Part shown: positions 1-2,165 of the stretch, one piece after another | How the letters are laid out: each line of letters begins with the position of its first letter | How positions within the stretch are numbered: position 1 is the first letter of the stretch | Virus record (IMG/VR): IMGVR_UViG_3300028985_000011 | DNA: 7,424 nucleotides | DNA from: a virus | Taxonomy: Duplodnaviria > Heunggongvirae > Uroviricota > Caudoviricetes | Strand: one strand, 5' to 3' | Notes under the pieces: model-generated | What the model was told of the DNA's origin: nothing | What the model saw: the letters and a program-made list of their open reading frames with translations, nothing else | Database searches by the model: none | Made by a program: the position numbers and the translations under genes

Positions 1-56
1 CCCTGCCATTGCTGGCATTTTTAATCCGTTGGTATGGCGTTAATATGGCTGGCGGG

Positions 57-245
57 TTATCCAGCCGGTATTTCGTTATTCAGGTTCAGCGATACTTTTT
101 TTAACGGGAGGCATTCACCGGGGATTTTTTGTTCGTCCCTTACCTGAATGCAGGATGACTTACTGTCATAAATTCCGGTAATCACATTTTGTGGCTCACC
201 CGTTATAAGAAAAACGGTCATCACCAGTGCAAATGCTGAAGTCAC
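57..245 (-). CDS. ydfD: YdfD-like small protein (62 aa) with N-terminal hydrophobic segment; GTG start overlapping the upstream stop (GTGA)
   Basis: Minus-strand ORF MTSAFALVMTVFLITGEPQNV...; GGAG Shine-Dalgarno 7 nt upstream of GTG at 243-245; hydrophobic N-terminus (FALVMTVFLITG); position immediately after dicB-like gene as in Qin prophage. Alternative ATG start at 219-221. Symbol assigned by synteny and size, not by search. Confidence 0.5.
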   Translation of the reverse strand: MTSAFALVMTVFLITGEPQNVITGIYDSKSSCIQVRDEQKIPGECLPLKKVSLNLNNEIPAG

Positions 246-430
246 TGCTGTTCTCCGATAATACCAAGTTCAAGAAGGGCAATTCTGGAAAGTATGGAAT
301 TATCATTGAGAAGATAAGGTTCATATTTTCTCATCTTAATGGCATCTTCCGTAAACTCCCGGTTACTGAGCAGAACACCAATATCAAAACAACCTTCAGA
401 CGTATTAACGTTTGGTAATAACGTTTCCAT
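242..430 (-). CDS. dicB: DicB-like cell-division inhibitor (62 aa)
   Basis: ATG at 428-430 (minus) with GAGGA Shine-Dalgarno 7 nt upstream; N-terminus METLLPNVNTSEGCF.IGV...FTEDAI matches my recollection of E. coli DicB; C-terminal half looks divergent; lies downstream of DicF-like sRNA. The six-frame track extends this ORF to a GTG at 535, which I consider unlikely. Confidence 0.6.
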   Translation of the reverse strand: METLLPNVNTSEGCFDIGVLLSNREFTEDAIKMRKYEPYLLNDNSILSRIALLELGIIGEQQ

Positions 431-485
431 TATCGCGTCCTCAACAATGAATTTTGTGATGCGGTGCCTGGTGCCTCCAGGTGAC

Positions 486-506
486 GTTAACCAGTTAACA
501 ATTAAC
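486..506. repeat. Three tandem (G/A)TTAAC hexamers at about 8-bp spacing in the dicB-like 5' leader
   Basis: GTTAAC at 486-491 and 494-499, ATTAAC at 501-506; GTTAAC is self-complementary so the cluster can form alternative RNA or DNA hairpins; function unknown. Confidence 0.4.
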
Positions 507-599
507 GCCGGATACAGAGAATCCACCCATAACACTGTTTTTGGTTTTAACTGTTCCGCGTGCGCTCAGCCGCATTCACCACATCACAAAATTCACTTT

Positions 600-642
600 A
601 AAAAGGGCGGCAGAGCAGTCACGGAGTAAAACTGATACCGCC
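600..642 (-). terminator. Rho-independent terminator at the 3' end of the DicF-like RNA
   Basis: On minus strand GGCGG (plus 638-642) ... CCGCC (plus 606-610) followed by C then TTTTT (plus 604-600); inner CAGT/ACTG pairing possible within the loop. Confidence 0.5.
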
Positions 643-657
643 AAACGTCACCAGAAA
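600..657 (-). ncRNA. dicF: DicF-like small regulatory RNA with 3' intrinsic terminator
   Basis: Minus-strand sequence TTTCTGGTGACGTTTGGCGGTATCAGTTTTACTCCGTGACTGCTCTGCCGCCCTTTTT matches my recollection of E. coli DicF; ends in GC stem (plus 638-642 / 606-610) plus U5 tract (plus 600-604); located between the upstream ORFs and dicB-like gene as in Qin. Not verified by covariance model. Confidence 0.55.
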
Positions 658-962
658 ATTGATAACAGAGGGCGTTGCAGCGGGGTTGTCACTTAAGCGT
701 ATGGTCAACCTGACAACCCGGTGTCCTCAGCGGGGTAAGGAATAACCCCGCCATACTTACCGCCGCGCCATTTCGCGGATTGCCACAACCGGAAGCGCAC
801 GATCGAATTAAATTTAACGACGACCTATACAGAGAGACTAACTTCTCCGGGCGCTTTCGTGTTATGCCCTGACTTTTCAGGGATATATCCTTTTCAGTAA
901 ACTGTCAGTGCCGGATTCTTATCCGTGTCCGGCGCACGCACTCTACCTCACCTGTGAATAAA
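658..962 (-). other. Hairpin-rich untranslated region between upstream ORF and DicF-like RNA (probable precursor/processing region)
   Basis: No ORF of convincing size or RBS on either strand; 9-bp stem GGGTTGTCA (683-691) / TGACAACCC (711-719); stem GCGGGGT (730-736) / ACCCCGC (745-751); direct repeat CAGCGGGGT at 678-686 and 728-736; stem CCCTGA (867-872) / TCAGGG (877-882); palindrome GGATATATCC (881-890); stem GCCGGA (910-915) / TCCGGC (928-933). Confidence 0.4.
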
Positions 963-1301
963 TTAATGATTAATTGATATTTTGTTGTTTGATTCAACTT
1001 TCCCATCGGATGTGTGATGCTTTAAATCACAGGAATTAATACTGCTTGCTGTAAAATGATTTTCAAGGGGAGCTATTCGAATCCCTTTCTTTTTCATTAA
1101 CAAGCCAAATCCTTTATTAATGATGTCCATTAATTCCAGAAAGTATTTTTCATGTAAATCCTGGTTATCAGAGAGCTGCTTCTCTTCGTACAGCCCGATA
1201 AAGGCTCGGCGTACGTTACCGGATATATTGTCGATGGTTTCTTTTTCTACGGTACTCAGGTCAAGAGTCGCCAGTTGAGAGCGAACCACATTCGATGCCA
1301 T
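963..1301 (-). CDS. Hypothetical protein, AT-rich 3' half; true start may lie upstream inside the N-run
   Basis: Minus ORF open from the N-run to stop at 963-965 (ATG at 1299-1301 has AGGAA directly abutting, poor spacing; frame stays open upstream to 1319); GC content drops markedly toward 963; no family recognised. Confidence 0.5.
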   Translation of the reverse strand: MASNVVRSQLATLDLSTVEKETIDNISGNVRRAFIGLYEEKQLSDNQDLHEKYFLELMDIINKGFGLLMKKKGIRIAPLENHFTASSINSCDLKHHTSDGKVESNNKISINH

Positions 1302-1319: not shown

Positions 1320-1373
1320 NNNNNNNNNNNNNNNNNNNNNNNNNNNNNNNNNNNNNNNNNNNNNNNNNNNNNN
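1320..1373. other. Run of 54 undetermined bases (assembly gap or masked sequence)
   Basis: n characters from 1320 to 1373; flanking minus-strand ORFs are in different frames, so gene structure across it is unresolved. Confidence 1.
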
Positions 1374-1503
1374 AGCGACGCGCGCCAGCTTCGGTTTTAA
1401 ACGTTTTGCTTTTGGTATACGTCATGGCGGTGAATGTGCCGTCCTGGTTGGGGAACACACCACATACCAGAGATTCGCTGTTGCCAAGATCGATAGTATC
1501 CAT
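1374..1503 (-). CDS. Hypothetical small protein, first gene of the leftward operon (3' end hidden in N-run)
   Basis: ATG at 1501-1503 (minus) with GAGG Shine-Dalgarno 5 nt upstream; encodes MDTIDLGNSESLVCGVFPNQDGTFTAMTYTKSKTFKTEAGARR...; the track's TTG start at 1608 has no RBS and overlaps the predicted promoter; occupies the position of ydfA-like genes downstream of dicA in Qin. Confidence 0.45.
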
Positions 1504-1579: not shown

Positions 1580-1608
1580 AATTTAGTTTTCTCATGAATG
1601 TTGGTCAA
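1580..1608 (-). promoter_or_regulatory. Candidate leftward sigma70 promoter (dicB-operon / PL-like) with embedded operator-like motif
   Basis: On minus strand -35 TTGACC (plus 1603-1608), 17-nt spacer, -10 TAAATT (plus 1580-1585); spacer contains TGAGAAAACT (plus 1585-1594), the same core motif found at 1619-1631 and 2152-2164. Confidence 0.45.
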
Positions 1609-1616
1609 GCATTTTT

Positions 1617-1632
1617 AATGAGAAAACTCAAT
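1617..1632. promoter_or_regulatory. Operator-like near-palindrome AATGAGAAAACTCAAT (left copy)
   Basis: 13-nt identity TGAGAAAACTCAA with the site at 2152-2164; inverted arms TGAG/CTCA around AAAA; 11 bp upstream of the candidate -35. Confidence 0.45.
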
Positions 1633-1692: not shown

Positions 1693-2100
1693 TTACTGAT
1701 GTTTGTTACGTTTGCGAGCTTCTAGTAGCTCGGTGAATAGGCGATTAAAATTCTCAACGCGGGCACGGAGTTCGCTGATTTGTGCTTGCTGCTCTGATTT
1801 TGGAAGTGCGCGATACAATCGCAACATCTCCAACTCATCTTCCGATAAGTCTAAGGCGCTGTTGAGTGCTACTGGTGGATCTGGTGTTTTATCCTCGTCA
1901 CCAAACAGTATCCAAGTTGGTGAACATTGCAATACCTCAGCCAGGCGATGCAAATTTTGCCCGCGCGGGGCTGTATGGTCGCTTTCCCATAGTGAAATTG
2001 ATGAGCCAGATACGCCAGCGGCTTTGCTTAAATCGTTTTGACTTAAACCAACCTGTTTGCGTCTTTCTCTAATTCGTTGACCTAAAGTTTTCTCGTTCAT
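1693..2100 (-). CDS. dicA: DicA-family HTH (XRE-type) prophage repressor, 135 aa
   Basis: N-terminal HTH (QRIRERRKQVGLSQNDLSKAAGVSGSSISLWE) and the motif LQCSPTWILFGDEDK that I recognise from E. coli DicA (also 135 aa); ATG at 2098-2100 with no obvious Shine-Dalgarno; divergent from a Cro-like gene. Confidence 0.9.
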   Translation of the reverse strand: MNEKTLGQRIRERRKQVGLSQNDLSKAAGVSGSSISLWESDHTAPRGQNLHRLAEVLQCSPTWILFGDEDKTPDPPVALNSALDLSEDELEMLRLYRALPKSEQQAQISELRARVENFNRLFTELLEARKRNKHQ

Positions 2101-2151: not shown

Positions 2152-2165
2152 TGAGAAAACTCAAC
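2150..2165. promoter_or_regulatory. Operator-like palindrome ATTGAGAAAACTCAAC (right copy)
   Basis: Perfect inverted repeat TTGAG-AAAA-CTCAA (2151-2164) overlapping the -10 and predicted start site of the rightward promoter; 13-nt identity with 1619-1631. Confidence 0.5.

What the first reader, a model, noticed from the sequence alone, without database searches (positions are those of the whole stretch)
57..430. Translationally coupled dicB-like / ydfD-like pair with a divergent DicB C-terminus
Two 62-aa minus-strand ORFs overlap by GTGA (stop of the first, GTG start of the second) and each has its own Shine-Dalgarno sequence. The first matches the DicB N-terminus from memory but its C-terminal approx. 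27 residues look different from E. coli K-12 DicB. The second has a hydrophobic N-terminus like the small lysis protein YdfD. DicB is known to inhibit division through MinC and to interfere with phage DNA entry, so this is a candidate host-protective cargo module whose variant C-terminus might alter partner specificity.
Basis: partly seen in the sequence, partly recalled or inferred. Interest (0 to 1): 0.5.

Follow-up and report, generated by a model that had tools for sequence, protein, structure and literature searches.

The report
Common dicB–ydfD allele in prophage
The two small overlapping genes are the known prophage cell-division inhibitor gene dicB and its usual downstream partner from the YdfD (DUF1482) family, in a sequence variant already annotated in about one in five complete E. 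coli genomes, so the finding is correct but ordinary.

Summary
Window 242-430(-) and 57-245(-) are two 62-codon ORFs that overlap by GTGA. Each has a Shine-Dalgarno sequence 7 nt upstream.

- **ORF 1 is DicB.** It matches full length in Pfam PF05358 (129.5 bits) and in NCBIfam (111 bits, cutoff 100).
- **ORF 2 is a DUF1482/YdfD-family protein.** It scores 56.4 bits in PF07358.
- **The context is the dicBF operon.** DicF sRNA lies upstream at 605-656(-). The operon sits behind a DicA-like repressor in a lambdoid prophage immunity region.

The "divergent C-terminus" is real: 38/62 residues match K-12 DicB, but only 11/27 in residues 36-62, and the net charge there is reversed. It is not unusual, though. 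It is the second of two old allele classes, with dS above 1 between them and dN/dS of 0.1-0.5.

- The window's class is in 1013 of 5426 complete E. coli genomes. The K-12 class is in 3948.
- The identical protein is annotated as DicB in RefSeq and in PPompW/Stx2a prophage records.
- An O157:H7 allele of the same class has been studied as "dicB".
- The 4-nt overlap is kept in all 13 pairs compared (window, K-12, 11 other loci), and dicB and ydfD classes always match (one ydfD is truncated).

MinC-dependent division inhibition is inferred from the conserved N-terminal determinant. Altered partner specificity remains untested. Lysis by the YdfD-like protein is uncertain.

The parts
242..430 (-). 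dicB, window allele class ('type II', C-terminus ...YEPYLLNDNSILSRIALLELGIIGEQQ); 62 aa
   Evidence: Pfam PF05358 at 129.5 bits over 1-62/62. NCBIfam NF049927 at 111 bits against a cutoff of 100. RefSeq WP_000449172.1 'cell division inhibition protein DicB' in a 100% identical locus. 61% identical to K-12 DicB.
57..245 (-). ydfD-like gene (DUF1482 family), GTG start, 62 aa
   Evidence: Pfam PF07358 at 56.4 bits. phrog_1092 at 112.8 bits. RefSeq WP_000199480.1 'DUF1482 family protein'. 48% identical to K-12 YdfD. No NCBIfam model matched.
242..245 (-). 4-nt start/stop overlap GTGA (GTG start of the ydfD-like gene, TGA stop of dicB)
   Evidence: Read directly. The same 4-nt overlap (ATGA or GTGA) is present in all 13 pairs compared: window, K-12 and 11 other loci.
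438..442 (-). Shine-Dalgarno GAGGA, 7 nt upstream of the dicB ATG
   Evidence: Read directly.
253..256 (-). Shine-Dalgarno GGAG inside the dicB 3' end, 7 nt upstream of the GTG of the ydfD-like gene
   Evidence: Read directly.
605..656 (-). DicF small RNA gene
   Evidence: Rfam RF00039 at 76.7 bits (gathering 48), model positions 1-52/52. Identical to K-12 dicF in the alignment.
431..604 (-). Untranslated leader between dicF and dicB. Together with dicF and the first ~15 dicB codons it is near-identical to K-12 Qin, upstream of the mosaic junction.
   Evidence: Alignment to K-12. The identity profile is 96-100% over window 800-401 and falls to 42-80% from 400 to 1.
1580..1630 (-). Promoter-like site (TTGACC-17-TAAATT) flanked by two copies of the 12-mer TGAGTTTTCTCA. 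It lies between the repressor gene and the first operon gene, so it is the likely equivalent of dicBp with its operators (inferred).
   Evidence: A third copy of the 12-mer is at 2152-2163, between the repressor and cro-like genes.
1693..2100 (-). DicA-like HTH repressor gene (135 aa)
   Evidence: Pfam HTH_3 at 60.9 bits. 56% identical to K-12 DicA.
1374..1503 (-). ydfA-like first gene of the operon (DUF1391). Its 3' end runs into the masked N stretch.
   Evidence: Pfam PF07151 at 84.2 bits. Sequence.
963..1301 (-). Hypothetical ORF of the same operon, between the ydfA-like gene and dicF. Its 5' end may lie in the N stretch.
   Evidence: ORF list. Annotated as a hypothetical protein in the identical locus. 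No Pfam match.

Best explanation
Window 57-430(-) is the distal end of a dicBF-type early-left operon of a lambdoid (Qin-like) prophage of Escherichia coli.

**Gene order on the minus strand.** DicA-like repressor, promoter with operators, ydfA-like gene, one hypothetical gene, dicF sRNA, a leader of about 170 nt, dicB, a ydfD-like gene, then (outside the window) a RecE-type exonuclease, an excisionase-like gene and the integrase at a tRNA-Ser.

**Proposed mechanism.**
1. While the repressor holds the promoter shut, nothing is made (inferred from K-12).
2. On derepression a polycistronic RNA is produced (inferred from K-12).
3. DicB is translated from its own Shine-Dalgarno sequence. [quoted passage not shown] As shown for K-12 DicB, it also blocks DNA entry of phages that use ManYZ (all inferred by homology).
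4. The ydfD-like gene is translated by ribosomes that terminate at the dicB TGA and restart at the overlapping GTG, helped by the GGAG inside dicB. This couples its amount to that of DicB (inferred from the sequence features).
5. In K-12, YdfD causes lysis that depends on ongoing division and is prevented by DicB. The pairing may therefore keep the second protein harmless until DicB is exceeded or lost. Whether this variant lyses cells is not known.

**The different C-terminal half.** It marks the second of two long-diverged allele classes of the whole dicB-ydfD cassette. The cassette is joined to a conserved dicF-leader-dicB 5' segment at a mosaic junction near dicB codon 16.
For: **Family membership.**

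**Identical annotated locus and prophage context.**

**K-12 has the same layout and the same 4-nt overlap.**

**Immunity-region genes.**. Promoter and operator-like sites.

**Mosaic junction.**

**Old alleles under purifying selection.** Between classes dS is 1.07-1.61 and dN/dS 0.28-0.49. Within the class dN/dS is 0.07-0.35.

**Frequency.** 1013 versus 3948 of 5426 genomes. 1013 of the 1037 genomes with any match cover at least 80% of a query spanning both genes, so the two genes travel together.

**Class concordance.** The dicB and ydfD classes agree in all 13 pairs compared (5 of the window's class, 8 of the K-12 class, one with a truncated ydfD).

**Conserved DicB residues.** Residues 1-15 are 14/15 identical to K-12. 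The invariant family columns are L5, P6, N7, N9, T10, S11, G13, F15, G18, F26, D29, A30, I31, R34, K35, E37, S48 and A51. Yang et al. 2016 found the N-terminal 13-14 residues and L5 essential, residue 2 replaceable and the last 8 residues dispensable (PMC4967827).

**Structure model.** The AlphaFold2 model is helical from residue 11 to 55 with a free N-terminal peptide, at mean pLDDT 79.

**Known functions in K-12.** PMC6832061, PMC8835842, PMC10448788.

**Prior use of this class as 'dicB'.** A primer used for O157:H7 dicB in PMC6915034 matches exactly the 3' end of an allele of this class.
Against: - No function of this allele class was tested here, and I found no paper that tests its protein for MinC binding, filamentation or phage exclusion.
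- Residues 36-62 differ at 16 of 27 positions and switch from net basic (5 K/R, 2 D/E) to net acidic (1 K/R, 4 D/E). In K-12, deletions of 12-20 C-terminal residues weaken DicB, so activity could differ.
- The YdfD-like protein lacks the terminal Leu and has Thr instead of Asn at position 2. K-12 mutants at these positions lost full lethality.
- Residues 19-37 of the YdfD-like protein are 1/19 identical to YdfD.
- Translational coupling is inferred from sequence geometry only.
- The integrase in the identical locus is frameshifted, so the prophage may be defective and the natural induction route is unknown.
Confidence: 0.85

Rival explanations
1. Neofunctionalised DicB. The charge-reversed C-terminal helices of this allele class give it a different second partner or target range (for example ZipA or ManYZ replaced by another membrane protein). 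It would then exclude a different set of phages, or inhibit division by another route, while still being a DicB-family protein.
For: - The net charge of residues 36-62 is -3 here and +3 in K-12. The whole protein is -5 versus +3.
- The two classes are old and both are maintained at high frequency.
- They can coexist in one genome, as expected if they are not redundant.
- C-terminal deletions beyond 8 residues weaken K-12 DicB.
Against: - The hydrophobic pattern of the C-terminal half is kept across classes: L40 and L41 (90% or more), I46, S48 and A51 invariant, and L55 (90% or more) in the 12-sequence alignment.
- The essential N-terminal segment is conserved.
- dN/dS between classes is 0.33-0.37, which gives no sign of positive selection.
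- Coexistence of several copies is usual for lambdoid prophage cassettes and needs no functional difference.
- Natural recombinants that join either N-terminal type to either C-terminal type exist. This suggests the halves are interchangeable.
Confidence: 0.15
2. The pair works as a toxin/antidote-like two-gene module. The YdfD-like protein is a lytic effector, and DicB is kept upstream and coupled to it because division arrest neutralises the lysis. The two allele classes would reflect co-evolution of the two proteins.
For: - In K-12, YdfD lysis is prevented by co-expression of DicB or SulA (cited in PMC8835842).
- The 4-nt overlap is kept in all 13 pairs compared, and the dicB class always matches the ydfD class.
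- 1013 of 1037 matching genomes keep both genes.
Against: - Two adjacent 190-bp genes are expected to co-segregate by linkage alone.
- Protection in K-12 is indirect (any division block works), so no specific co-evolution is needed.
- Lysis by this variant is untested, and the variant differs at positions that matter for K-12 YdfD.
- One Shigella locus has intact dicB with a truncated ydfD (L008).
Confidence: 0.15
3. The two ORFs are decaying remnants of a defective prophage with no function under selection.
For: The integrase in the identical locus is frameshifted. The operon is toxic when expressed and silent in the laboratory in K-12.
Against: - Both ORFs are intact in over 1000 complete genomes.
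- dN/dS is well below 1 within and between classes.
- Start codons, Shine-Dalgarno sequences and the overlap are conserved.
- The identical DicB is carried by PPompW and Stx2a prophage records.
Confidence: 0.04

Closest known systems
DicB of the E. coli K-12 Qin (Kim) cryptic prophage (b1575; Pfam PF05358, NCBIfam NF049927)
   Same: - Same length (62 aa) and same family, matched over the full length.
- Same position downstream of dicF in a DicA-type repressed operon.
- The same 4-nt overlap with the next gene.
- The N-terminal 15 residues are 14/15 identical.
- The DNA from dicF to dicB codon ~15 is near-identical.
   Different: - 61% identity overall and 11/27 in residues 36-62.
- The C-terminal part is net acidic instead of basic, and the two C-terminal Cys of K-12 DicB are absent.
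- The repressor upstream is only 56% identical to DicA.
- ydfB and ydfC are replaced by one unrelated hypothetical gene.
YdfD lysis protein of Qin (b1576; Pfam PF07358 DUF1482)
   Same: - Same family, size and position.
- Hydrophobic residues 3-16, then 'GEP'.
- Two conserved Cys, a central 'EQKIPG.C.P' motif and a C-terminal 'EIPAG'.
   Different: - 48% identity, with residues 19-37 at 1/19 identical.
- GTG instead of ATG start.
- It ends at Gly62 without the terminal Leu63 and has Thr2 instead of Asn2. K-12 YdfD altered at either position lost full lethality (PMC8835842).
- The part after residue 17 has net charge 0 instead of -3.
- PGAP names it only 'DUF1482 family protein'.
dicB-DUF1482 pairs of E. 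coli O157:H7 prophages and of PPompW / Stx2a-converting prophages of STEC
   Same: - Same allele class. The PPompW and 'Escherichia phage 204576' records encode a 100% identical DicB.
- The O157:H7 H6437 pair is 90.6% identical in DNA, and its DicB differs at 3 of 62 residues.
- A published O157:H7 dicB primer matches this class.
   Different: - Different integration site. Here it is next to a tRNA-Ser near mtfA, whereas the PPompW name implies ompW.
- The O157 copy uses ATGA rather than GTGA at the overlap.
Kil of phage lambda (early-left operon division inhibitor)
   Same: A small protein of the PL-type early-left operon that blocks FtsZ-ring function in a ZipA-dependent way (PMC3961180, abstract seen). 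This is a resemblance in position and role only.
   Different: No sequence relationship was tested or claimed. By published work, Kil acts on FtsZ/ZipA without MinC.

Membership tests
DicB (Pfam PF05358 / NCBIfam NF049927) | Sequence match above the curated thresholds over the full ~62-aa length | tested here: met
   Pfam 129.5 bits (cutoff 27), 1-62/62. NCBIfam 111 bits (cutoff 100), 1-62/62.
DicB (Pfam PF05358 / NCBIfam NF049927) | Intact N-terminal determinant (first 13-14 residues, L5) shown to be essential in K-12 DicB | tested here: met
   METLLPNVNTSEGCF versus MKTLLPNVNTSEGCF. The only change is K2E, at a position reported as replaceable. L5 to F15 are invariant or nearly so in 38 homologues.
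DicB (Pfam PF05358 / NCBIfam NF049927) | Located downstream of dicF in an operon next to a DicA/DicC-type immunity region of a lambdoid prophage | tested here: met
   DicF at 605-656(-). HTH repressor 56% identical to DicA, plus P22_Cro-family and DUF1391 (ydfA-like) genes. Prophage context in the identical locus.
DicB (Pfam PF05358 / NCBIfam NF049927) | Binds MinC and causes MinC- and ZipA-dependent division arrest | not testable with these tools
   Needs expression and interaction assays. No solved structure of any DicB was found.
DicB (Pfam PF05358 / NCBIfam NF049927) | Blocks infection by phages that use ManYZ (K-12 DicB, PMC6832061) | not testable with these tools
   Needs plating assays. 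PADLOC has no model that matches.
YdfD / DUF1482 (Pfam PF07358) | Sequence match above the Pfam gathering score | tested here: met
   56.4 bits (cutoff 25), residues 4-61 on profile positions 1-57/57. phrog_1092 at 112.8 bits.
YdfD / DUF1482 (Pfam PF07358) | Immediately downstream of dicB with a 4-nt start/stop overlap | tested here: met
   GTGA here. ATGA or GTGA in all 13 pairs compared, including K-12.
YdfD / DUF1482 (Pfam PF07358) | Hydrophobic N-terminal segment acting as a membrane helix | tested here: inconclusive
   The hydrophobic run spans residues 3-16 only, and the 19-residue Kyte-Doolittle mean is 1.39. The one confident AlphaFold2 model (1 of 5) places it as a beta strand, E5-12.
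YdfD lysis protein in the strict sense (K-12 b1576) | Intact termini (N2, L63) needed for full lethality of K-12 YdfD (PMC8835842) | tested here: not met
   The window protein has T2 and ends at G62 without a terminal Leu. NCBIfam gives no equivalog match.
YdfD lysis protein in the strict sense (K-12 b1576) | Causes division-dependent lysis and binds IspG | not testable with these tools
   Needs expression, ispG rescue and pull-down experiments.
Translationally coupled gene pair | Start codon overlapping the upstream stop codon, with a Shine-Dalgarno sequence inside the upstream gene | tested here: met
   GTGA at 242-245 and GGAG at 253-256. These are geometric features only.
Translationally coupled gene pair | Downstream translation depends on upstream translation | not testable with these tools
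   Needs reporter fusions with dicB start or stop mutants.
Catalogued anti-phage defence systems (PADLOC-DB 2.0) | Match to a defence-protein model | tested here: not met
   No family matched either protein at E <= 1.

The most novel reading that the evidence does not exclude
The two allele classes of the dicB-ydfD cassette are functionally distinct. The acidic C-terminal helices of this DicB class would redirect the DicB-MinC complex to, or away from, a different inner-membrane partner than the basic K-12 class. That would give a different phage-exclusion spectrum. The matching YdfD-like class, which lacks L63 and is neutral rather than acidic, would have a target other than IspG. The cassette would then be a polymorphic superinfection-exclusion locus.
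Probability: 0.12. Interest if true: 0.4.

Novelty: already known. Interest (0 to 1): 0.12.

Why it matters
As it stands, this confirms a routine annotation. The window carries a dicBF-type operon of a Qin-like prophage, and both proteins already have RefSeq accessions and family names.

What remains of interest is modest.
- All mechanistic work found in the searched literature (MinC, ZipA, ManYZ, IspG) was done on the K-12 allele class.
- About a fifth of complete E. coli genomes, including O157:H7 and other STEC, carry a second class. It has a charge-reversed DicB C-terminal half and a strongly diverged YdfD partner.
- A side-by-side test of the two classes would show whether K-12 results can be transferred to pathogenic strains.

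Tried and rejected
1. **Solved structures.** The PDB sequence search for DicB gave no match at E <= 10. Foldseek of the DicB model against the PDB gave 0 matches. Foldseek of the YdfD-like model gave nothing better than E = 1.1. There is therefore no structural analogue to reason from.
2. **PADLOC defence models.** No match for either protein.
3. **NCBIfam for the YdfD-like protein.** No model matched.
4. **Genome-contig scan for pair conservation across species.** Only 7 loci were returned, because the collection holds one genome per species and the family is almost confined to Escherichia and Shigella. I used the E. coli complete-genome counts instead.
5. **Masuda et al. 2016 (PMC5975272), the first YdfD paper.** It is not held in the library. 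Its results are cited only as reported in PMC8835842.
6. **Terminator after the ydfD-like gene.** The hairpin at 46-67 has its T-run on the + strand only, so it is not a convincing minus-strand terminator.
7. **An internal start for ORF 2 (ATG at codon 9).** Rejected, because the GTG aligns with the K-12 ATG and with ATG in O157 and E. albertii alleles.
8. **Pseudogene reading.** Rejected on dN/dS and on intactness across genomes.

Full report
**1. Observation**

The minus strand of window 57-430 holds two 62-codon ORFs.
- The first runs 430 to 242 (ATG ... TGA). It translates to METLLPNVNTSEGCFDIGVLLSNREFTEDAIKMRKYEPYLLNDNSILSRIALLELGIIGEQQ.
- The second runs 245 to 57 (GTG ... TAA). It translates to MTSAFALVMTVFLITGEPQNVITGIYDSKSSCIQVRDEQKIPGECLPLKKVSLNLNNEIPAG.
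- They share the four bases GTGA at 242-245.
- GAGGA (442-438) lies 7 nt before the first start. GGAG (256-253) lies 7 nt before the second start.

**2. Identity**

- **ORF 1** matches the DicB family end to end. Pfam PF05358 gives 129.5 bits, E = 3.7e-38. NCBIfam NF049927 gives 111 bits against a cutoff of 100. phrog_1251 gives 137 bits.
- **ORF 2** matches DUF1482, the family of YdfD. PF07358 gives 56.4 bits and phrog_1092 gives 112.8 bits. No NCBIfam model names it.
- **DicF sRNA** is found upstream at 605-656(-) with a full-length Rfam match of 76.7 bits.
- **Further upstream on the same strand** lie a hypothetical ORF, a DUF1391 (ydfA-like) ORF and a promoter-like site. The promoter-like site is flanked by two copies of the 12-mer TGAGTTTTCTCA.
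- **The immunity genes** follow: a 135-aa HTH repressor 56% identical to K-12 DicA, then, divergently, a P22_Cro-family gene and a YdaT-family gene.

The first 900 bases of the window are 100% identical to the chromosome of E. coli AR_0013. There the same two CDS are annotated as 'cell division inhibition protein DicB' (WP_000449172.1) and 'DUF1482 family protein' (WP_000199480.1). They sit in a prophage whose left arm continues with a RecE-type exonuclease, a DUF4224 gene and a frameshifted integrase next to a tRNA-Ser.

**3. The 'divergent C-terminus'**

BLASTP against K-12 DicB gives 38/62 identities with no gaps.

| DicB residues | Identical to K-12 |
|---|---|
| 1-15 | 14/15 |
| 16-26 | 6/11 |
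| 27-35 | 7/9 |
| 36-62 | 11/27 |

The C-terminal part also changes charge. It has 1 K/R and 4 D/E here, against 5 K/R and 2 D/E in K-12. The whole protein is net -5 against +3.

At the DNA level the window is practically identical to K-12 from dicF through the leader to about dicB codon 15. It then drops to 42-80% identity for the rest of dicB and all of the ydfD-like gene. This is a typical lambdoid mosaic junction.

**4. How unusual is it?**

It is not unusual.
- A query limited to the divergent segment (window 57-385) is covered at 80% or more in 1013 of 5426 complete E. coli genomes. It is at least 99% identical in 330 records.
- The equivalent K-12 segment is found in 3948 of 5426 genomes.
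- The protein database lists many DicB clusters, which fall into two C-terminal types...RKYEPYLLNDNSILSR[IL]ALL.LGI[IF]... and ...RK[QH]ERELLNKICIVSMLARLRLM.... Rare recombinants join either N-terminal variable patch to either C-terminus.
- Relatives of the window's type are also recorded from Salmonella and Citrobacter.
- A 100% identical DicB is encoded in 12 phage or prophage records: PPompW, Stx2a-converting prophages and Escherichia phage 204576.
- The reverse primer used for 'dicB' of O157:H7 in PMC6915034 matches exactly the 3' end of an O157:H7 allele of this class. It does not match the window or the K-12 class. This class has therefore already been handled as dicB in the literature.

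**5. Are both genes real and kept as a pair?**

Nei-Gojobori estimates:

| Comparison | dS | dN/dS |
|---|---|---|
| Between the two classes | 1.07-1.61 (saturated) | 0.28-0.49 |
| Within the window's class (three E. coli loci) | 0.15-0.39 | dicB 0.07-0.29; ydfD-like 0.34-0.35 |

Both genes are under purifying selection and the two classes are old.

- In all 13 pairs compared (window, K-12 and 11 other loci) the second gene starts with ATGA or GTGA on the dicB stop.
- The class of dicB agrees with the class of the downstream gene in every pair: five of the window's class and eight of the K-12 class. One Shigella locus has a truncated ydfD.
- 1013 of the 1037 genomes with any match to the two-gene query cover at least 80% of it.
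- The pair is linked more tightly than dicB is to dicF. Rfam finds DicF at gathering score in the window and in the O157 locus, but not in L003, L004, L011 or L012.

**6. How it most likely works**

*Shown here:* family membership, operon position, the conserved overlap and Shine-Dalgarno sequences, and purifying selection.

*Inferred from K-12 work:*
- The DicA-type repressor keeps the operon silent (PMC10448788).
- On derepression DicB binds MinC and, via ZipA, blocks division (PMC4967827 and its references).
- DicB also blocks entry of phages that use ManYZ (PMC6832061).

The inference for MinC is reasonable. Yang et al. found the first 13-14 residues and L5 essential, residue 2 replaceable and the last 8 residues dispensable. 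The window protein differs from K-12 in that segment only by K2E.

The AlphaFold2 model is moderately confident (mean pLDDT 79). It gives a free N-terminal peptide (residues 1-10) followed by helices at 11-22, 24-36, 38-42 and 46-55. The conserved C-terminal positions are L40, L41, I46, S48, A51 and L55. They look like the hydrophobic face of these helices, so both classes probably share one fold.

Both classes occur together in E. albertii NBRC 107761 and thus act on the same MinC. This argues against MinC-driven divergence.

**7. The second protein is less certain**

K-12 YdfD causes division-dependent lysis that DicB or SulA prevents, and it is reported to bind IspG (PMC8835842). The window protein:
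- is 48% identical to YdfD;
- keeps the hydrophobic residues 3-16, two invariant Cys, the 'EQKIPG.C.P' core and the 'EIPAG' end;
- is 1/19 identical in residues 19-37, and is neutral rather than acidic after residue 17;
- has T2 and lacks L63, while K-12 mutants N1A, L63A and delta-C1 all lost full lethality.

The hydrophobic stretch is short for a membrane helix. In the single confident model (1 of 5) it is a beta strand. I therefore file the protein as a DUF1482 member, not as a proven lysis protein.

**8. Verdict**

The locus is already known and annotated, and the 'variant' is the second common allele class of a well-known prophage cassette.

The open question is whether the charge-reversed C-terminal half and the diverged partner change function. 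I found no paper testing the protein of this class. I give that reading about 12-15%. Interest is low.

Noticed in passing
window 1320-1373: A run of about 54 N (masked sequence) lies inside the minus-strand operon. It cuts the 3' end of the ydfA-like (DUF1391) ORF and possibly the 5' end of the next ORF. Coordinates downstream are shifted by 2 nt relative to the identical RefSeq locus.
   Followed up: partly
window 1583-1594(+), 1619-1630(-), 2152-2163(-): Three copies of the 12-mer TGAGTTTTCTCA (one with 1 mismatch). Two flank a -35/-10 match at 1608-1580(-), upstream of the ydfA-like gene. One lies between the repressor and cro-like genes. They look like the operators of the DicA-like repressor. 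Only 4 of 200 shuffles gave 3 matches.
   Followed up: partly
window 385-400 (dicB codons ~11-16): A sharp mosaic junction. Window 401-800 (dicF, leader, dicB 5' end) is 96-100% identical to K-12 Qin. Window 1-400 is 42-80% identical. The dicF-leader segment is conserved across both allele classes far more than the flanking coding DNA.
   Followed up: partly
window 242-535(-): The dicB reading frame is open for 35 further codons upstream (a 97-aa ORF from GTG at 535). [quoted passage not shown] 1988, cited in PMC8835842).
   Followed up: no
window 242-322(-) (DicB residues 36-62): Charge reversal relative to K-12 DicB: 1 K/R and 4 D/E here against 5 K/R and 2 D/E. The two C-terminal cysteines of K-12 DicB are also absent.
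   Followed up: partly
window 57-245(-): The YdfD-like protein has two Cys that are invariant in 23 homologues (C32, C45). It ends at G62 without the terminal Leu of K-12 YdfD. Its hydrophobic N-terminus is modelled as a beta strand rather than a membrane helix (only 1 of 5 models confident). Two conserved Cys would fit a periplasmic disulfide, which sits oddly with the reported cytoplasmic target IspG.
   Followed up: partly
L003, L004, L011, L012: These loci have an intact dicB-ydfD pair, but no DicF match at the Rfam gathering score. The dicF segment is deleted or diverged there, so the protein pair is linked more tightly than dicB is to dicF.
   Followed up: partly
L005 (JAGZPX010000007.1): A contig labelled 'MAG: Veillonella parvula' carries a K-12-class dicB-ydfD pair. 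It is most likely an Escherichia contig mis-binned into that metagenome-assembled genome.
   Followed up: no
proteins P0019, P0021, P0024, P0066, P0071: Natural recombinant DicB proteins join the K-12-type patch at residues 16-26 to the window-type C-terminus, and the reverse. This indicates recombination inside the 189-bp gene.
   Followed up: no
window 46-67(+): A hairpin spans the stop codon of the ydfD-like gene, and its T-rich tail is on the + strand only. It is terminator-like for + strand transcription coming from the exonuclease side, not for the dicB operon.
   Followed up: no
L008 (Shigella flexneri SFBU0723): dicB is intact, but the downstream ydfD is truncated to 18 codons. This is an example of the pair being broken while dicB is retained.
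   Followed up: no
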